NCBI GenBank assembly: GCA_046881885.1
Contig: JBKSMP010000014.1
Coordinates: 1 to 22,445 of the forward strand
DNA from: Opitutales bacterium
GTDB lineage: Bacteria > Verrucomicrobiota > Verrucomicrobiia > Opitutales > UBA9783
Direction of reading: 5' to 3'
Length of the DNA: 22,445 bases
Translations under genes and position numbers: made by a program
Notes under the pieces: model-generated
The model's database searches: none
What the model was told of the DNA's origin: nothing
What the model saw: the letters and a program-made list of their open reading frames with translations, nothing else
Shown: in pieces, positions 1,772-9,475 of the stretch
How positions within the stretch are numbered: the stretch's first letter is position 1
How the letters are laid out: each line of letters starts with the position of its first letter

Positions 1772-3951
<2,180 letters not shown>

Positions 3952-3956
3952 AAACT

Positions 3957-5087
3957 ATGGATGAATTGGGGATGGAGCAAACAGCAAGTGTTGGCGCACG
4001 ACTGAAGTTCTTAGCGCTCGGTAGTGCTGCTTGCCGCGTCCTCAATCACTTTTTTACCACGCAAACCTATGTTGCCGATTTGTGCTTGGCCGTAGATACT
4101 GATTTGCGCTGCTTGGAACAACTCAATTCTACCCTTCCCAAGTACTGTTTCGCGAAAAAACATTTTCGTGGCTTAAGTTCAGGTGGAGATGAAACACTCG
4201 TAAAAGAGGTTTTAGGTAAAGAAGACGCTTGTATCCAAGCCTTTTGTCAAAAAACGGATGTACTGATTATTTTAGTCGGTTTAAGTGGCGGAACAGGTAG
4301 TGGCGCCTTATTGGCAACCATACAAATGGCTTTAAGAGCCGGTACCTTTGTCTTAATCATTCCTATACTTCCCTTCACCTTTGAGGGAAAAAACAAAAGC
4401 ATTCGTGCACGTAACCAAGTAAATGCTTTGCAATCATTCGCCGATTTGGTTGTCCCTTTCTATAATGATATCTTATTTCAAACCCTACCCGAATCAGCAA
4501 CCGTAAAAGAAGCTTTTCAAGAAGGCGACAAGCTAATTTCTCAAATTATGTGTGCATTTGCAAATAGCTTAAATCGAGTCGAATCGGGCGCTTTTGCAAC
4601 AAACTTAAATGAATTTTCACGGCATTTTTCTGAAAAGCCGGATATTGTCTTTTGGGGACTCGGTAAGGCAAGTGGAGAAAATGCTTTAAATCAAGCTCTG
4701 AAAAAAGTTTTTGAGTGTACTCCCTTAAAAACACAGGGTTCAGATGCACCTGCACAACGCGCTTTTGTTGCAGTACATTCCAGTAATGAAATCCCTTTGA
4801 GTGATCTAAAAAACTTAAATTACGAAATCCAAAGCTTTTTAGGAGTTCCCGAAATTCAATTTCTCAACAGCTGTAATACCTCTTTGAATGATTCGCAAGA
4901 GGTTGAGCTGTTTTTACTCGTCTCCTCAACGAAAAAGAACATCAAAACCGTTCGCTATCGTAAAGGGAAAAAACAAGCCGCTCCAGAAGCACATGTACAA
5001 ACCCAATTTGATTTTGAAGAACAAGCCAACGAATCGTATTGGGATACGCCCACCTATTTGCGTATGGGCCTTAAACTCGACGCATGA
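3957..5087 (+). CDS. ftsZ: Divergent FtsZ-family (tubulin/FtsZ GTPase fold) protein
   Basis: 376 aa, collinear with FtsZ. Matching blocks: LAVDTDLRCL (NTDAQAL), RGLSSGGDETLVKE (KGLGAGANPEVGR), VGLSGGTGSGALLATI (GMGGGTGTGAAP), PILPFTFEGKNK (TKPFxFEGxxR), and a C-terminal WDTPTYLRMG resembling the DIPAFLRKQ tail. The T1 loop is ALGSAACR instead of GVGGGGxN. The T7 loop is NLNEFSR instead of NVDFADV. Starts 5 nt after the eno stop. Confidence 0.8.
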   Translation: MDELGMEQTASVGARLKFLALGSAACRVLNHFFTTQTYVADLCLAVDTDLRCLEQLNSTLPKYCFAKKHFRGLSSGGDETLVKEVLGKEDACIQAFCQKTDVLIILVGLSGGTGSGALLATIQMALRAGTFVLIIPILPFTFEGKNKSIRARNQVNALQSFADLVVPFYNDILFQTLPESATVKEAFQEGDKLISQIMCAFANSLNRVESGAFATNLNEFSRHFSEKPDIVFWGLGKASGENALNQALKKVFECTPLKTQGSDAPAQRAFVAVHSSNEIPLSDLKNLNYEIQSFLGVPEIQFLNSCNTSLNDSQEVELFLLVSSTKKNIKTVRYRKGKKQAAPEAHVQTQFDFEEQANESYWDTPTYLRMGLKLDA

Positions 5088-5476
5088 AGGCAAAAGGCTT
5101 TACCTTATTAGAACTGCTATTAAGTCTTTCTATTCTTTCGATTGGTTTTTTAGCGTTTTCTTCCTGTATAGAATCCCAAAAACAACAAAAACGCAATTTG
5201 CAAGTCTACCAATCACTTTATCCTTTTATTGAAGCCTTTGAATGGTTTTTTCACACTTATGATGATCCTGACGAAACTATTGAAGGTACTTGGTTGGCAT
5301 ACCAAACGAAAAATGGTAAACGAAAATTTTTAAAGCAAACGCAAGCCAATCCCTTGCTTCCTAATTACTCCTTTAAAATAGAAGTGTCGGCTGAAAGTTC
5401 GTTTTACAAAATTAGTTTTTTCGATAAAACAACAAGAGCATTAGCCAGTTTTTATTGGGCAAATGAAGAACTTTAG
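5084..5476 (+). CDS. Prepilin-type N-terminal cleavage/methylation domain protein (pseudopilin/type IV pilin-like)
   Basis: N-terminus MKAKG|FTLLELLLSLSILSIGFLAF matches the class III signal (G|FTLxE followed by a hydrophobic helix). 130 aa. Its ATG overlaps the ftsZ stop (ATGA at 5084-5087). Confidence 0.75.
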   Translation: MKAKGFTLLELLLSLSILSIGFLAFSSCIESQKQQKRNLQVYQSLYPFIEAFEWFFHTYDDPDETIEGTWLAYQTKNGKRKFLKQTQANPLLPNYSFKIEVSAESSFYKISFFDKTTRALASFYWANEEL

Positions 5477-5477
5477 C

Positions 5478-6197
5478 TTATCTGTTTATTTCACCCAGAT
5501 CGAACAGGTCGAAATTAGGTTCGCAACTTGCTTCAAAAGATAAGTTTTTTAGCTCAAATTGTATTGTTTTAGCATGCAAATACAAACGATCTACCTTTAA
5601 CTGACGATTAAGATTAAAATCTCCATATGTTTTATCGCCCAGAATAGGAAAATGATGATAAGCACATTGAGTACGTAATTGGTGTGTTCGTCCCGTCAAC
5701 AGATACAATTCAAGTGCACTTAAGGCTCTCCCTTTTAGCGAAAAGGTATGTAAACAGTTTATCTTTGTTTGGGCCATAATGCCCCTATTTGAAGTATTGC
5801 ATTGCGTACGCAACTTTTGCTGCTCCTTACGGATCGATAAAAAATCCTTCCAAACGACTTTCTGGGTCGGAAATCGCCCTTTTACAAGCGCACAATACGT
5901 TTTCCTTACGGCATGGGATTTAAACAAAGTACGAACCTCCTGAGCAAGCGAAGGATCAGTTGCTAAAAGCAAAACACCAGAAGTAGGACTATCCAATCGA
6001 TTCAGCAAATATACCCATTCATTTCCTATTTTGTAAGCCTCTTTCTCAAAATCGTAAGGGGCTTGCACCACACTCTGCTTAAACTTATCTGAAGTATTAG
6101 GATGCGAAAGTAATCCGCAAGGCTTATCAATCGCCAGAATCCCCTTCGAAGCTTTTATAAGTTTTACAGAAGTATGCCATGGAATGTTTTCCTTCAT
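5478..6197 (-). CDS. RluA-family pseudouridine synthase (no S4 domain)
   Basis: 239 aa. Catalytic block LNRLDSPTSGVLLLA and GRTHQLRTQCAYHHFPILGDKTYG are typical of the RluA/RsuA superfamily. Confidence 0.85.
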   Translation of the reverse strand: MKENIPWHTSVKLIKASKGILAIDKPCGLLSHPNTSDKFKQSVVQAPYDFEKEAYKIGNEWVYLLNRLDSPTSGVLLLATDPSLAQEVRTLFKSHAVRKTYCALVKGRFPTQKVVWKDFLSIRKEQQKLRTQCNTSNRGIMAQTKINCLHTFSLKGRALSALELYLLTGRTHQLRTQCAYHHFPILGDKTYGDFNLNRQLKVDRLYLHAKTIQFELKNLSFEASCEPNFDLFDLGEINR

Positions 6198-6296
6198 AGA
6201 TGTTCTATTATCTCAAGATATCAGTCCGATTTTAGCAAGATCGTTTTATAACTTTAGAAAAATCCCAAATTTTATGCAAAATAAAACGGCAGAATA

Positions 6297-7110
6297 AAGT
6301 TTGAAGAGCAAGCTATTGAGTACAGAAAAGAAGGCCGATGCAGGAAATGTAAAGCGTAAGCATTTTCTAAAAAGATGAAGTTAATTTTTGGTGGCAATCG
6401 GTGAGATACGCTTGTGTATAATATGCTTTGTTTTTTTTAGGAAAATATTGCAAGGTACGGCCTTGAGGGAGTCAATGGCCGTTGGCCATTTGAAAGTTTT
6501 TTGGAACCAATTCCGCATTCCCAAGGGCAATGCGGATGGGCAAAATATATCATTGCATTCAAGGGACTTGCGATGGTTTTATGCTCGGGGAATTTGGTGC
6601 CATTGTTAAGTGTAACGGATTTTACGGCCTGAGGAAATGGTTCAAATGCCGAATTTGTTAGAAATAAGTTTTGTTGCTAAATAGAACTGAGATTCGGACG
6701 AGTTTGAATTGAGAGATTTTTGTAAAAAATCCGTCAAACTCCCTTAAAACATTTATTTATTTATTGGACAATACTATTGCGCAATAAATAAAAGTTTTTG
6801 AGAGGTTAAGGGAATACTCAAGCTCGAATTTCCGCATAAATCCTGCGATAAATGCTTTCATAACTGATGTTTACAACGCTCGCAATCTGTTCCGGACTAA
6901 AATTTTGAACAATCCGAATACTTTTCCACAGGTCTTTTTGCTGATTTTCGACATTTTTGACCCCTTCAGACGCTTGTTGGCTAGCTTCTGCGCTCGCTCA
7001 TACTCGTAACTTCGCTTCAATTCTCGTCTAATCGTACTTCGGCTTCGCCCGAGCTCCTCCGCGATCTTTCTACGTTCTTCTTTTGAGATGTGTTTGTATT
7101 GCATTTTCAT
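6297..7110 (-). pseudogene. Decayed IS30-family transposase (frameshifts, stops, internal deletion)
   Basis: My minus-strand translation gives IS30-type pieces in different frames: MKMQYKHISKEERRKI..LGRSRSTIRRELKRS (7110->6871); FSPEQIASVVNISYESIYRRIYAEIRA* (6901->6818); FEPFPQAVKSVTLNNGTKFPEHKTIASPLNAMIYFAHPHCPWE (6646->6518); GRTLQYFPKKNKAYYTQAYLTDCHQKLTSSF* (6462->6367); RKCLRFTFPASAFFSVL (6368->6297). The DNGxEF aspartate is replaced (LNNGTKF) and the first part of the DDE core is missing. Confidence 0.75.
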
Positions 7111-7194
7111 TTTTTACGTTATCACAAAATGCTAGATCCTCATCTCTTTCCGCTTTTCGCAATTTTTTACTTCCCGTGTTGCTCTTCAAACTTG

Positions 7195-7229
7195 AGCCTC
7201 CCAATACGGGAGGCTTCTTTATTATTTTC
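7195..7229. terminator. GC-rich hairpin downstream of ahpC, probably a bidirectional intrinsic terminator
   Basis: AGCCTCCC (7195-7202), loop AATAC, GGGAGGCT (7208-7215). Followed by TTCTTTATTATTTT on the plus strand and preceded by an A-rich run as read on the minus strand. The stem begins 36 nt after the ahpC stop. The T-tract is better on the plus strand, so orientation is ambiguous. Confidence 0.5.
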
Positions 7230-7250
7230 AGAACTTAGTTGATTCAGAAC

Positions 7251-7904
7251 TTATTTAAAAAACTGATGAAGACCGTCTTGGGTTGGCTGCATAGCTTTAT
7301 CGCCTTTGTGCCAATTGATGGGGCAAACTTCTCCAAATTGTTCGAAATGTTGCAGTGCGTCAACCATACGCAAAGTTTCTTCGACGGAACGACCTAGGGG
7401 CATATTATTGATGACCTGGTGTTGTACAATACCTTCTTTATCGATTAAGAACAAACCGCGATAAGCGACCAAAGTTCCTTTAGTTTGCAAACATCCGCAT
7501 TCATCGTAGTAATAATCGCCGGCCAAGACCCCGTAATTGGTTGCGATGGTTTTATTGGTATCTGCAACGATAGGGTAGGTAACACCTTGGATGCCACCCA
7601 ATTGTTTGGGTTGTTGCAACCAAGCGAAATGGCTATTTTCGGTATCGGTAGAACAGGCAACAACCTGCACAGAACGTTCTTCAAAAGCCTTTAAAGCTTC
7701 TTGGAAGGCATGCAATTCTGTTGGGCAAACAAAAGTAAAATCTTTCGGATAAAAGAATAAAACAACGTATTTTTTCCCTAAAAATTGCTCTAAGGAAAAG
7801 TTTTCCACAATTTCTGCGCCGTTAAGAACCGCTGGAGCTATAAATTGCGGTGCTTTTCGTCCAACGAGTGCAGCCGGTACTGAGTTACAATTACATTCAC
7901 ACAT
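7251..7904 (-). CDS. ahpC: Typical 2-Cys peroxiredoxin (AhpC/Tsa family) with a Cys-rich N-terminal extension and an internal insertion
   Basis: FFYPKDFTFVCPTEL (peroxidatic Cys), GEVCPINW (resolving Cys), and LFLIDKEGIVQHQVINNMPLGRSVEETLR. Extra features are MCECNCNS at the N-terminus and DYYYDECGCLQTKG inserted before the RGLFLID block. Confidence 0.93.
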   Translation of the reverse strand: MCECNCNSVPAALVGRKAPQFIAPAVLNGAEIVENFSLEQFLGKKYVVLFFYPKDFTFVCPTELHAFQEALKAFEERSVQVVACSTDTENSHFAWLQQPKQLGGIQGVTYPIVADTNKTIATNYGVLAGDYYYDECGCLQTKGTLVAYRGLFLIDKEGIVQHQVINNMPLGRSVEETLRMVDALQHFEQFGEVCPINWHKGDKAMQPTQDGLHQFFK

Positions 7905-7976: not shown

Positions 7977-8813
7977 CTATTTTATGCCGTATTGTTGGCC
8001 ATTAATTGCGATAGGACGAGATAATGTACCCTTTTGACGCATAGAATTTAGAAGTACTTTGGAAGCTTCATCTAAAAAATCTTCTGAAATTTTTATGGAT
8101 TTTAAAAAAGGAAGTCGGCAATCAATATGATTGTGCGTTTTTACAAATAGGTCTTGTAGAGATTTTAATTGAGAACAATGCTCAACTTCAAGTACTTCGA
8201 GCGCGGTTAATTGTAATAGAGGCTTTAGATTTTGTAGGTAAGTACTATTGCAACGAAGTGTTTGTAGGCTTGGTAGGGATAAATTTTCTGGAAATTGTGA
8301 GATAGGATTAAACGATAGGTCGAGCTTGGTCAATAATTTACTCGATTCGGTCGTCATGAATTGTTGAATTTGGTTGTGCGAGAGATTTAAGTCCTTTAAT
8401 TGCTCAAAATTACATAAAAAGGAGGCTTGTAGTTTATTATGGGACAAATCTAAGACTTCGAGTTTGGGTAATTGGCTGAGAATGGAAACATCCGTAATGA
8501 GATTATTCGATAGGAATAAGGTTTTTAAGCGTTTTAATGTGTTTAGCGGTGCTAGAGCGTCAATGAGGTTGTTTTTTAGAGATAATAACTTTAGGTTAGG
8601 TAAACACTCAAACCCTCTTAAATTCGAAATTTGAGCGTTGTCCGCTTGAAAAGACGTAATAGCCTCGAATTTTAAATTTTTGTTATTTGTACAGATGTTT
8701 TTAACGATTTTACGCGCATGCTGGTCGGCAAAAAAATGCCACGGTTCTTTTTGTTTATCGGCATGCGCGGTAGCCGCTATCGTTAAAAGCAACAATATAT
8801 TTTTAATTTTCAT
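7977..8813 (-). CDS. Secreted leucine-rich repeat (LRR) protein
   Basis: Sec-type signal MKIKNILLLLTIAATAHA|DKQ. Followed by about eight 22-residue LxxLxLxxNxIxD/S repeats (LPNLKLLSLKNNLIDALAPLNT, LKRLKTLFLSNNLITDVSILSQ, LPKLEVLDLSHNKLQ...). The start overlaps the upstream gene's stop (ATGA at 8810-8813). Confidence 0.8.
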   Translation of the reverse strand: MKIKNILLLLTIAATAHADKQKEPWHFFADQHARKIVKNICTNNKNLKFEAITSFQADNAQISNLRGFECLPNLKLLSLKNNLIDALAPLNTLKRLKTLFLSNNLITDVSILSQLPKLEVLDLSHNKLQASFLCNFEQLKDLNLSHNQIQQFMTTESSKLLTKLDLSFNPISQFPENLSLPSLQTLRCNSTYLQNLKPLLQLTALEVLEVEHCSQLKSLQDLFVKTHNHIDCRLPFLKSIKISEDFLDEASKVLLNSMRQKGTLSRPIAINGQQYGIK

Positions 8814-9466
8814 ATATTTTGTTCCATAAGTTTCAAAATTTCATTTGTTTTTGAAAGCAATTCTTGATTTTCTTCGCTTAAACAAGCGGTGTTATCAAGA
8901 ACTTCTTTAATTTTAAGAAGATATTCTTTTGCTTTATCTTTGTTGTTGCGATTCATTTCACAATCTGCTGCAAAAAAGTAAAGGTCGGGATCCTGTAAAG
9001 CATTAACGGTATTAGCATAAAACTCTGAAGCTTGCTCAGGGCCTTTTACTTCTTCAGTCGCTTTGCCAAGATATAAGTAAGGTTTTGTGTAAGTTGGACA
9101 ATAAGAAACAATAAAATAAAACATTGCATAAGCATCATTCCAAGTTTCATTTTCAAAAGCTTCTAGAGCATATTGCATCATGATATTGTAACATGCTTTT
9201 TTGCTGTTTTGTCCTAAATTTTTTTTGGATTTTATTTTTTGAAAATATTTTGCTAATAATTTTTTGTGGTCATAATTTTCAAAAATATGCAAAGCTTCAA
9301 TTAGTTGTTTTTTTACATCTGATAAATAGCGTTCCCAGAGAGGCTTTTGTTGTAATACTTTTTGTTCAAATTTATCATCTAAAATAATATTATTTTCGTT
9401 TTGTTGGCAGAGTTGTAACGCTGCTAATAATGTTGCTAAATTTGATTGAAAATTTGTTGTGTTCAT
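8810..9466 (-). CDS. TPR-like protein resembling class II type III secretion chaperones (SycD/LcrH/CesD type); function tentative
   Basis: 218 aa, helical. My hand alignment with remembered SycD/LcrH needs a single 1-residue indel. WNDAYAMFYFIVSYCPTYTKPYLYLGKATEEVKGPEQASEFYANTVNALQDPDLYFFAADCEMNRNNKDKAKEYL aligns with YEDAHKVFQALCVLDHYDSRFFLGLGACRQAMGQYDLAIHSYSYGAIMDIKEPRFPFHAAECLLQKGELAEA. It is a CDS with high likelihood; the functional call is only moderate. Confidence 0.6.
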   Translation of the reverse strand: MNTTNFQSNLATLLAALQLCQQNENNIILDDKFEQKVLQQKPLWERYLSDVKKQLIEALHIFENYDHKKLLAKYFQKIKSKKNLGQNSKKACYNIMMQYALEAFENETWNDAYAMFYFIVSYCPTYTKPYLYLGKATEEVKGPEQASEFYANTVNALQDPDLYFFAADCEMNRNNKDKAKEYLLKIKEVLDNTACLSEENQELLSKTNEILKLMEQNI

Positions 9467-9475
9467 AAAATTGCT

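What the first reader, a model, noticed from the sequence alone, without database searches (positions are those of the whole stretch)
3957..5087. FtsZ homologue with degenerate GTP-binding T1 loop and T7 catalytic loop, located outside the dcw cluster
The protein is collinear with FtsZ over its whole length. It retains the T4 signature (SGGTGSG) and a C-terminal peptide resembling the FtsA/ZipA-binding tail (WDTPTYLRMG versus DIPAFLRKQ). The glycine-rich T1 loop GVGGGGxN is replaced by ALGSAACR. The synergy (T7) loop NxDxxD is NLNEFS, so both acidic residues that activate GTP hydrolysis in the neighbouring subunit are lost. The gene sits directly after enolase rather than at the end of the dcw cluster, and the dcw cluster in this window ends after murF. 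Erosion or loss of FtsZ is documented in parts of the PVC superphylum. This could be an intermediate state, or a repurposed GTPase-impaired filament protein.
Basis: partly seen in the sequence, partly recalled or inferred. Interest (0 to 1): 0.65.

Follow-up and report, generated by a model that had tools for sequence, protein, structure and literature searches.

The report
Remodelled FtsZ of gut Opitutales bacteria
This gene encodes a genuine but heavily remodelled cell-division protein FtsZ that is conserved in a group of uncultured gut Verrucomicrobia; its GTP-binding loop and several catalytic residues differ from almost all known FtsZs, so it may work as a slow-hydrolysing filament.

Summary
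ORF 3957-5087 (+) is an intact 376-aa FtsZ homologue. It passes Pfam Tubulin (E 2e-18). It scores only 77 bits against the TIGR00065 ftsZ model, whose cut-off is 295. An AlphaFold model superposes on solved FtsZ over both domains (TM 0.86-0.89).

The T1 claim holds. GxGGxGxN is replaced by ALGSxACR, and this motif is fixed across about 40 relatives from human-gut, rumen and termite-gut Opitutales genomes.

The T7 claim is mis-registered by two residues. The correct equivalents of N-x-D-x-x-D are A214-T-N216-L-N-E219, so one acidic residue is kept (Asp in most relatives). Non-canonical T7 loops are also the rule in the neighbouring Verrucomicrobia-type FtsZs, including copies in ftsQ-ftsA-ftsZ operons.

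The gene is not eroding. dN/dS is 0.03-0.06, the nucleotide-pocket loops are the most constrained part of the core, and the C-terminal tether peptide is nearly invariant.

In a bootstrap tree the family nests inside Verrucomicrobia-type FtsZ. It is never next to ftsA. In most lineages it overlaps a downstream pilin-like gene.

I could not determine whether the same genomes also carry ftsA or a canonical ftsZ. My best reading is a relocated, remodelled FtsZ of this lineage with slow GTP turnover. This is a new variant of a known kind.

The parts
3957..5087 (+). Gene for the divergent FtsZ (376 aa; the stop codon overlaps the next gene's start)
   Evidence: ORF; Pfam Tubulin E 2e-18; TIGR00065 77 bits against cut-off 295; two-domain FtsZ fold, TM 0.86-0.89 to 2vxy, 3wgk and 8gzx; dN/dS 0.03-0.056
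4014..4037 (+). T1 loop, residues 20-27, ALGSAACR in place of GxGG[AG]GxN
   Evidence: Column counts for the family against canonical FtsZ; G22, S23, A25 and R27 invariant in the family; mean entropy 0.48 bits
4278..4304 (+). T4 tubulin signature, residues 108-116, GLSGGTGSG (retained)
   Evidence: G108, G111, G112, G114 and G116 invariant in both the family and canonical FtsZ
4395..4397 (+). K147, at the position of the catalytic H5 arginine (S. aureus FtsZ R143)
   Evidence: K in 42/42 family members against R in 52/53 canonical FtsZs; R143K in S. aureus FtsZ lowers GTPase about 6-fold and stabilises polymers (PMC8936486)
4596..4613 (+). T7 loop and start of H8, residues 214-219, ATNLNE, equivalent to canonical N-x-D-F-A-D
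   Evidence: Same register from phmmer, MAFFT, hhalign and predicted H8 at 217-223; family residues A/V, N/R and D/E
4938..5036 (+). Short disordered linker, residues 328-360
   Evidence: pLDDT below 50 from residue 328; canonical Verrucomicrobia-type relatives have much longer linkers
5037..5078 (+). C-terminal conserved peptide, residues 361-374, YWDTPTYLRMGLKL
   Evidence: 11 of 14 positions at least 95% conserved, entropy 0.11 bits, the lowest in the protein; aligns with DLD[IV]PT[FY]LR.G[IL]K[IL] of relatives encoded next to ftsA
5084..5476 (+). Pilin-like gene (130 aa) whose ATG overlaps the ftsZ-like stop codon (ATGA)
   Evidence: PF07963 N_methyl 28.4 bits against cut-off 21.2; the same gene pair in several family lineages with otherwise different flanks; model has a helix at 8-58 plus five strands
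2656..3951 (+). Enolase gene directly upstream (5-bp gap); probably the same transcript in this lineage
   Evidence: TIGR01060 662 bits; sequence of the junction; no terminator-like site between the genes
12677..18920 (+). First half of the dcw cluster: mraZ, rsmH, a 95-aa ftsL-sized ORF, ftsI, murE, murF; it ends before glgA
   Evidence: NCBIfam hits; same order on an independent contig, L053

Best explanation
The ORF encodes this lineage's own FtsZ. It descends from the Verrucomicrobia-type FtsZ that normally sits in ftsQ-ftsA-ftsZ, and it has moved out of the dcw cluster (here behind eno).

Shown:
- It is an intact two-domain FtsZ fold with a short linker and an FtsZ-type C-terminal tether peptide.
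- It belongs to a family of about 40 sequence clusters in gut-associated Opitutales genomes.
- It is under strong purifying selection.
- Its nucleotide-pocket loops are remodelled (T1 ALGSxACR, T2 DTD, H5 Lys for Arg) but are the most constrained part of the core.
- The T7 residues that activate hydrolysis in the neighbouring subunit are only partly kept (A-x-N-x-x-E/D) and vary more.

Inferred mechanism: it still binds a guanine nucleotide and polymerises head to tail. It is tethered to the membrane through its C-terminal peptide, most likely by FtsA. It hydrolyses GTP slowly, giving long-lived filaments that scaffold the divisome (FtsL and FtsI are encoded in the window).

Whether it is the only FtsZ in the genome is inferred, not shown.
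For: - Homology and fold.
- Family: 41 clusters at 44-90% identity with the same length, in 17 loci from 16 genomes of the species-representative collection, from human gut, rumen and termite gut.
- Selection: dN/dS 0.030-0.056 against 0.026 for enolase.
- Pocket loops T1-T6 and H7: entropy 0.64 against 1.36 bits for the rest of the core (p = 1e-10). 34/67 against 37/231 positions are at least 95% conserved (odds ratio 5.4, p = 3e-8). T7/H8 is 1.06 bits and the tail 0.11 bits.
- Tree (neighbour-joining, 200 bootstraps): family 92%; with P0224, P0225, P0226 and P0228 100%; inside a 97% clade that contains P0045, an FtsZ encoded directly after ftsQ-ftsA; all inside a 100% clade of Verrucomicrobia-type FtsZ, which includes a copy at the end of a full dcw cluster.
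- Shared derived characters with the ftsA-adjacent copies P0045 and P0052: VDTD, GLSSGGD and the tail Q.xF.FE...D.PT[FY]LR.G[IL]K.
- T1 intermediates exist: LGGAGCR in L009 and ALGGAASR in P0224.
- The divergence is gene-specific. Enolase, MurE, RsmH and GlgA in the same window score well above their model cut-offs.
- Slow hydrolysis: in S. aureus FtsZ, R143K and Q48A each cut GTPase about 6-fold and stabilise polymers (PMC8936486). The family has K147 invariant and R or S at the Q48 position.
Against: - No ftsA, ftsQ or ftsW was found in about 370 kb of related loci. An FtsA search did not surface a copy from these lineages.
- The rest of the genomes could not be read, so a canonical ftsZ elsewhere is not excluded.
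- Gene-specific acceleration combined with relocation is also the classic signature of a paralogue.
- In S. aureus FtsZ, N208L and D210N each abolish assembly. The family carries A/V and N/R at those positions, so polymerisation is not assured.
- The H7 aspartate that reads the guanine base is not conserved in the family (Y17, D16, N8).
Confidence: 0.5

Rival explanations
1. It is a specialised paralogue that coexists with a canonical FtsZ and FtsA encoded elsewhere. With an altered active site but an intact tail, it could co-assemble with or cap FtsZ filaments, compete for the tail-binding anchor, or build a separate cytoskeletal element. The translationally coupled pilin-like gene hints at an envelope or secretion link.
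For: - It is always outside dcw and never next to ftsA.
- Its divergence is gene-specific while neighbouring housekeeping genes look normal.
- The 4-bp overlap with a pilin-like gene is conserved across lineages whose other flanks differ.
- The T7 loop is less constrained than the pocket.
Against: - No second tubulin-family gene was seen in any related locus.
- The species-genome scan gave one locus per genome, apart from one gene split across two contigs. Its patterns would not detect a canonical ftsZ.
- From my own knowledge, known bacterial FtsZ paralogues (FtsZm, Agrobacterium FtsZ2 and FtsZ3) usually lose the C-terminal peptide. Here it is the most conserved segment.
- Relatives in the true ftsQAZ slot already show the same trends.
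- The pilin-like partner is missing in the termite-gut clade and in L009.
Confidence: 0.3
2. It is a decaying FtsZ on its way to loss, as happened in Chlamydiota and Planctomycetota. The T1 and T7 changes would then be relaxed-selection damage.
For: Several residues needed for catalysis or assembly in model FtsZs are substituted. The gene has left the dcw cluster.
Against: - The reading frame is intact and of constant length in about 40 clusters.
- dN/dS is 0.03-0.056.
- The substituted T1 residues are themselves invariant.
- The pocket loops and tail are the most conserved parts.
- The family spans hosts from termites to humans.
Confidence: 0.03
3. It belongs to a different tubulin-superfamily clade (FtsZl-1/Tubulin_2, TubZ/PhuZ, CetZ, BtubA/B) and is not an FtsZ derivative.
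For: Weak Pfam Tubulin_2 hit, E 0.0022, 17.7 bits against a cut-off of 27. PF12327 FtsZ_C is not detected.
Against: - All significant solved-structure matches by sequence and by fold are FtsZ.
- The alignment to TIGR00065 covers residues 11-334.
- The tree places it inside Verrucomicrobia-type FtsZ with 100% support.
- It shares the FtsZ C-terminal peptide.
Confidence: 0.02

Closest known systems
Canonical bacterial FtsZ (TIGR00065; for example B. subtilis 2vxy, S. aureus 3vo8, E. coli 8gzx)
   Same: Two-domain fold (TM 0.86-0.89). It also shares the T4 GGTGSG signature, T5 PFxFEG, T6 ND, a short linker followed by a C-terminal D-x-P-x-[FY]-L-R peptide, and collinearity over residues 11-334.
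   Different: - T1 has one glycine instead of four or five.
- T2 N to D and Q to R.
- T3 G82 to V.
- The H5 arginine is Lys.
- T7 N to A and first D to N.
- It scores 77 bits against the 295-bit cut-off.
- It is not next to ftsA or in the dcw cluster.
Verrucomicrobia-type FtsZ (V. spinosum FtsZ; long-branch, extended C-terminus; PMC1845146, PMC12283558)
   Same: Phylogenetic nesting. It shares the tail context Q.QFE...D.PT[FY]LR. T7 is already non-canonical in this group ('xIGxD[DE]' or 'NxDxx[TSA]').
   Different: Those proteins keep GxGGAGxN in T1 and the H5 arginine (128/146). They have long linkers, lie at the end of ftsQ-ftsA-ftsZ, and carry a detectable PF12327 domain.
Engineered S. aureus FtsZ interface mutants Q48A, R143K, N208L, D210N (PMC8936486)
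   Same: The family naturally carries R or S at the Q48 position, K at R143, A or V at N208 and N or R at D210.
   Different: The mutants are single changes in a canonical background. Here the changes are combined, fixed and under purifying selection, which implies compensation. No biochemistry exists for this family.
Bacterial FtsZ paralogues (Magnetospirillum FtsZm, Agrobacterium FtsZ2 and FtsZ3) - from my own knowledge, not tested here
   Same: FtsZ-derived genes located outside the dcw cluster with altered properties.
   Different: Those paralogues coexist with a canonical FtsZ and typically lack the linker and C-terminal peptide. Here the peptide is the best-conserved element, and coexistence is unknown.
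Tubulin T1 loop (GQCGNQ-type) - from my own knowledge
   Same: It shows that a T1 loop with non-glycine residues at several positions can still bind GTP in this superfamily. G22 aligns with the first tubulin glycine.
   Different: Position 25 is Ala where both tubulin and FtsZ have Gly. The rest of the protein is FtsZ-like, not tubulin-like.

Membership tests
FtsZ (cell-division tubulin homologue) | Tubulin/FtsZ GTPase domain | tested here: met
   PF00091 E 2e-18, 67.8 bits against cut-off 33
FtsZ (cell-division tubulin homologue) | FtsZ C-terminal (activation) domain | tested here: met
   PF12327 is not detected by sequence. The AlphaFold model aligns over about 312 columns, covering both domains, with solved FtsZ at TM 0.86-0.89
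FtsZ (cell-division tubulin homologue) | Score above the curated equivalog cut-off (TIGR00065) | tested here: not met
   77 bits against 295.2. NCBI names two members 'hypothetical protein'
FtsZ (cell-division tubulin homologue) | Glycine-rich T1 loop GxGG[AG]GxN | tested here: not met
   ALGSAACR. Canonical G, G, G and N are present in at least 49/52 reference sequences
FtsZ (cell-division tubulin homologue) | T4 tubulin signature [SAG]GGTG[SAT]G | tested here: met
   S110-GGTGSG116, invariant glycines
FtsZ (cell-division tubulin homologue) | T7 synergy loop N-x-D-x-x-D | tested here: not met
   A214-T-N216-L-N-E219. Only the last acidic position is kept. Only 14 of the 146 nearest cluster representatives have the full triad
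FtsZ (cell-division tubulin homologue) | Disordered linker plus conserved C-terminal peptide (D-[IV]-P-x-[FY]-L-R) | tested here: met
   Residues 328-360 have low pLDDT. YWDTPTYLRMGLKL is nearly invariant
FtsZ (cell-division tubulin homologue) | Phylogenetic placement within FtsZ | tested here: met
   Neighbour-joining tree, 200 bootstraps: inside the Verrucomicrobia-type FtsZ clade at 100%
FtsZ (cell-division tubulin homologue) | Gene at the end of the dcw cluster, next to ftsA | tested here: not met
   It follows eno here. It follows ComEC, a dCMP deaminase, a beta-lactamase-fold gene or upp in relatives
FtsZ (cell-division tubulin homologue) | GTP-dependent polymerisation, GTPase activity, Z-ring at midcell | not testable with these tools
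   Needs biochemistry and microscopy
FtsZl-1 / Tubulin_2 (PF13809) family | Match to the PF13809 model above its cut-off | tested here: not met
   E 0.0022, 17.7 bits against cut-off 27, over 61 residues only
Type IV pilin / pseudopilin (for the downstream gene 5084-5476) | N-terminal prepilin cleavage and methylation motif G|FTLLE plus a hydrophobic helix | tested here: met
   PF07963 28.4 bits against cut-off 21.2; TIGR02532 25.3 against 16.3; invariant KGFTLLE
Type IV pilin / pseudopilin (for the downstream gene 5084-5476) | Pilin fold (long N-terminal helix packed on an antiparallel sheet) matching a solved pilin | tested here: inconclusive
   The model has a helix at 8-58 and five strands, but there is no significant match to any solved structure

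The most novel reading that the evidence does not exclude
This is the only FtsZ in these gut Opitutales. It has become a nucleotide-locked, essentially non-hydrolysing filament that still binds its membrane anchor through the conserved tail. These bacteria would then divide without GTPase-driven treadmilling. That would be a living intermediate between FtsZ-dependent division and the FtsZ-free division of Chlamydiota and Planctomycetota, inside the one name-giving PVC phylum currently described as retaining ftsZ and highly conserving the dcw genes.
Probability: 0.15. Interest if true: 0.8.

Novelty: new variant of a known kind. Interest (0 to 1): 0.5.

Why it matters
FtsZ's glycine-rich T1 loop and its inter-subunit catalytic residues are among the most conserved features in bacterial cell biology. 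Single changes at several of these positions inactivate model FtsZs.

This family carries a fixed set of such changes (T1, T2, the H5 Arg to Lys, T7) under strong purifying selection. It is a natural experiment on which parts of the GTPase cycle are dispensable.

If it is the sole FtsZ, it bears on how PVC bacteria moved away from FtsZ-driven division.

There is also a practical point. The protein fails the curated ftsZ model, and NCBI names two of its relatives 'hypothetical protein'. Gene-presence surveys can therefore wrongly score these genomes as lacking ftsZ.

Tried and rejected
Search for ftsA or a second ftsZ in the same genomes:
- tblastn and an FtsA profile built from 120 Opitutae FtsAs found nothing in about 370 kb of related loci.
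- A database search with the FtsA of the closest ftsQAZ-type relative listed only ordinary Opitutae FtsAs. None had contig statistics matching the family's contigs.
- Look-ups with the window's end proteins did not extend the window.

Search for an early-branching member still next to ftsA:
- P0224, P0225 and P0228 sit on contigs of 1.4-2.1 kb.
- The gene upstream of P0225 is upp. The gene upstream of P0228 is an unknown acidic protein.

Shared synteny with L052:
- In L052, ftsZ is followed by a type II secretion pseudopilin cluster. Its neighbours show no sequence similarity to genes in the family loci.

Fold match for the pilin-like partner:
- No significant match to any solved structure.

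Readings rejected:
- Alignment artefact. Three alignment methods agree on T1.
- Pseudogene (dN/dS).
- Another tubulin clade (tree).
- The LRR/TPR/membrane-protein operon at 7977-12537 as a functional partner. It looks like a type III secretion chaperone and translocator module that is merely syntenic.

Literature: searches found no description of this family.
Full report
WHAT IS THERE

ORF 3957-5087 on the + strand is intact and encodes 376 aa. It matches the Pfam Tubulin/FtsZ GTPase domain (E 2e-18). It aligns with the curated ftsZ model TIGR00065 over residues 11-334, but scores only 77 bits against a cut-off of 295. All significant matches among solved structures are FtsZ, at E about 2e-20.

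An AlphaFold2 model built on a 25-sequence family alignment has mean pLDDT 78.9 and pTM 0.80. Only residues 1-11 and 328-376 are disordered. The model superposes on solved FtsZ structures over about 312 columns, with target-normalised TM-scores of 0.86-0.89. Both FtsZ domains are therefore present, although Pfam FtsZ_C is not detected by sequence.

Enolase ends 5 bp upstream. The mraZ-rsmH-(ftsL)-ftsI-murE-murF block at 12677-18920 is followed by glgA.

THE MOTIFS

I compared 42 family members with 53 canonical FtsZs column by column.
- T1 is A20-L-G-S-A-A-C-R27. Canonical FtsZs have G, G, G and N at positions 20, 23, 25 and 27 in at least 49 of 52 sequences.
- T4 (GGTGSG), T5 (PFxFEG) and T6 (ND) are retained.
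- T2 has D47 for N and R51 for Q.
- T3 has S74 and V82 for two glycines.
- The H5 arginine is K147 in all 42 family members.

The predicted helix H8 begins at 217, which fits. So the asparagine and the first aspartate are replaced, while the second acidic residue is kept as Glu. It is Asp in 29 of 42 relatives.

Mutagenesis of S. aureus FtsZ gives a yardstick (PMC8936486).
- Q48A and R143K each lower GTPase about 6-fold and stabilise polymers.
- N208L, D210N, D213N and D46A suppress assembly.
- The family equivalents are R or S, K, A or V, N or R, D or E, and D.

IT IS A FAMILY, AND IT IS CONSTRAINED

The protein database holds 41 clusters at 44-90% identity, all about 375 aa long. There is then a large gap to ordinary FtsZ, from E 1e-71 to 1e-23. 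A scan of one genome per species found the family in 17 loci from 16 metagenome-assembled genomes. They are labelled Opitutales, Puniceicoccales or Verrucomicrobia and come from Hadza and other human guts, yak and deer rumen, and termite guts. The window is 98% identical to CAZIZB010000063.

The substituted T1 residues G22, S23, A25 and R27 are invariant in the family, and so is the tail WDTPTYLR.G.KL. dN/dS is 0.030-0.056 between close relatives, against 0.026 for the adjacent enolase.

Within the family the nucleotide-pocket loops (T1-T6, H7) have a mean entropy of 0.64 bits, against 1.36 for the rest of the core (Mann-Whitney p = 1e-10). Positions at least 95% conserved number 34/67 against 37/231 (odds ratio 5.4, p = 3e-8). 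T7/H8 is near the core average at 1.06 bits. The C-terminal peptide is the most conserved segment at 0.11 bits.

This pattern fits a protein that still uses its pocket and its tail. It does not fit a decaying gene.

The divergence is gene-specific. Enolase, MurE, RsmH and GlgA in the same window score far above their model cut-offs.

WHERE IT COMES FROM

The nearest ordinary FtsZs are of the Verrucomicrobia type. They share the tail context (Q.QxE...G.F...DLD[IV]PT[FY]LR) and already have an unusual T7, 'NIGLDEL'. One of them ends a complete mraY...ddl-ftsQ-ftsA-ftsZ cluster.

A profile search of 1.84 billion cluster representatives gave a graded series of relatives. P0224 has T1 ALGGAASR and P0225 has AAGGAACN. 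P0226 and P0228 follow, and then many short FtsZs.

A neighbour-joining tree with 200 bootstraps gives these supports:
- the family, 92%;
- the family with P0224, 86%;
- adding P0225, 78%;
- adding P0226 and P0228, 100%;
- this group inside a clade that contains P0045, 97%;
- that clade with P0052, 79%;
- everything inside the Verrucomicrobia-type FtsZ clade, 100%.

P0045 and P0052 are each encoded directly after ftsQ-ftsA. They share VDTD and GLSSGGD with the family.

Among the 146 nearest representatives only 14 have the canonical N/D/D T7 triad. The types 'xIGxD[DE]' and 'NxDxx[TSA]' dominate. Nearly all of those printed keep GxGGAGxN in T1, and 128 keep the H5 arginine.

So T7 deviation is a trait of the wider clade and also occurs in FtsZs in the normal operon slot. 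The T1 remodelling and the fixed Arg-to-Lys change are the features most characteristic of this family: Lys at that position occurs in only 12 of the 146 relatives.

V. spinosum FtsZ is known to be long-branched (PMC1845146) and essential (PMC12283558). The same 2025 paper describes Verrucomicrobiota as retaining ftsZ and the dcw genes as highly conserved in the phylum. I found no description of this family in the literature.

GENOMIC CONTEXT

In none of the loci examined is the gene next to ftsA or ftsQ. The upstream gene differs by lineage:
- enolase in this window;
- ComEC;
- a dCMP deaminase;
- a beta-lactamase-fold gene;
- upp.

The gene pair with the next ORF is kept in most lineages. 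That ORF (130 aa here, 5084-5476) starts inside the ftsZ-like stop codon (ATGA). It carries a prepilin cleavage and methylation motif, KGFTLLE, scoring 28.4 bits on PF07963 against a cut-off of 21.2. Its model is one long N-terminal helix followed by five strands, without a significant match to any solved structure. Its detectable homologues are confined to the same lineages.

The pair is absent from the termite-gut clade and from the human-gut genome L009, so it is not obligatory. Most of a pseudopilin lies in the periplasm, so a direct contact with the cytoplasmic FtsZ tail seems unlikely. I treat the pair as co-expressed, with its function unknown.

THE OPEN QUESTION

I could not establish whether these genomes also have ftsA or a canonical ftsZ.
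- tblastn and an FtsA profile found nothing in about 370 kb of related loci.
- A database search with the FtsA of the closest ftsQAZ-type relative listed only ordinary Opitutae FtsAs. None had contig statistics matching the family's contigs.
- Look-ups from the window's ends gave no extension.
- The pattern scan of species genomes would not have detected a canonical ftsZ.

INTERPRETATION

The best-supported reading (confidence about 0.5) is that this is the lineage's own FtsZ, moved out of the dcw cluster.
- Its nucleotide pocket is rebuilt but functional.
- Its tether peptide is intact and most likely still binds FtsA. The tail is nearly the same as in relatives encoded next to ftsA.
- Its inter-subunit active site predicts slow GTP turnover and long-lived filaments.

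The main rival (about 0.3) is a specialised paralogue beside a canonical FtsZ. The 'eroding gene' and 'other tubulin clade' readings are contradicted by the selection data and by the tree.

VERDICT

This is a new variant of a known kind, of moderate interest now (0.5). It would be of high interest if it proves to be the only FtsZ of these bacteria and is catalytically inert.

Noticed in passing
window 5084-5476 (+): A 130-aa pilin-like gene (prepilin motif KGFTLLE) starts inside the ftsZ-like stop codon (ATGA). The pair is conserved in several family lineages whose other flanks differ. It is absent in the termite-gut clade and in L009. Detectable homologues occur only in these lineages.
   Followed up: partly
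window 7977-12537 (-): A six-gene minus-strand operon. It encodes a secreted LRR protein, a TPR protein weakly like the SycD/LcrH type III chaperones, a protein with a paired hydrophobic hairpin (translocator- or Inc-like), a DUF748-like membrane protein, and two unknown proteins with signal-peptide-like N-termini. The LRR, TPR and DUF748-like genes also lie just downstream of the ftsZ-like gene in distant relatives (L010-L013, L017). L045 and L050 show an LRR and a DUF748-like gene in the same position.
   Followed up: partly
L049 10304-12462; L050 2653-3093: Related genomes carry Bac_export_1/2/3 genes (type III or flagellar export apparatus) and a CesT-type chaperone close to the ftsZ-like gene. 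This suggests that these gut Opitutales have a type III secretion system and a lifestyle associated with host or protist cells.
   Followed up: no
146 nearest cluster representatives (P0224-P0369): Only 14 of the 146 FtsZ relatives nearest to this family have the textbook T7 triad N/D/D. Two alternative types dominate, 'xIGxD[DE]' and 'NxDxx[TSA]', and they include FtsZs encoded directly after ftsA. Non-canonical synergy loops appear to be the norm in this PVC-type FtsZ neighbourhood.
   Followed up: partly
P0227 (840 aa), P0234 (826 aa), P0248 (731 aa), P0274 (914 aa), P0294 (915 aa): Several related representatives are very long proteins in which the FtsZ core occupies only part of the sequence (in P0227 and P0248 it starts near residues 480 and 390). 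They may be fusions or have extreme linkers.
   Followed up: no
window 6197-7251, ORF 6871-7110 (-): About 1 kb without a long ORF. It contains a 79-aa fragment with an HTH_38 helix-turn-helix (28.3 bits), of the kind I recall from IS30-type transposase N-termini. It may be a transposase remnant marking the rearrangement that separates the ftsZ-like/pilin-like pair from the LRR operon in this lineage.
   Followed up: partly
window 18920-19194 and L053: The dcw cluster is split. murF is followed directly by glgA and then a convergent FKBP/Mip-like isomerase. mraY, murD, ftsW, murG, murC, ddl, ftsQ and ftsA are not in the window. The same arrangement occurs on an independent contig.
   Followed up: partly
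L009 9965-11119: The human-gut member (MGYG-HGUT-04418) has T1 'LGGAGCR'. This is intermediate between the canonical GGAGxN and the family's GSAACR, and shows stepwise loss of the T1 glycines.
   Followed up: partly
window 21970-22056 (+): tRNA-Leu (anticodon CAA).
   Followed up: no
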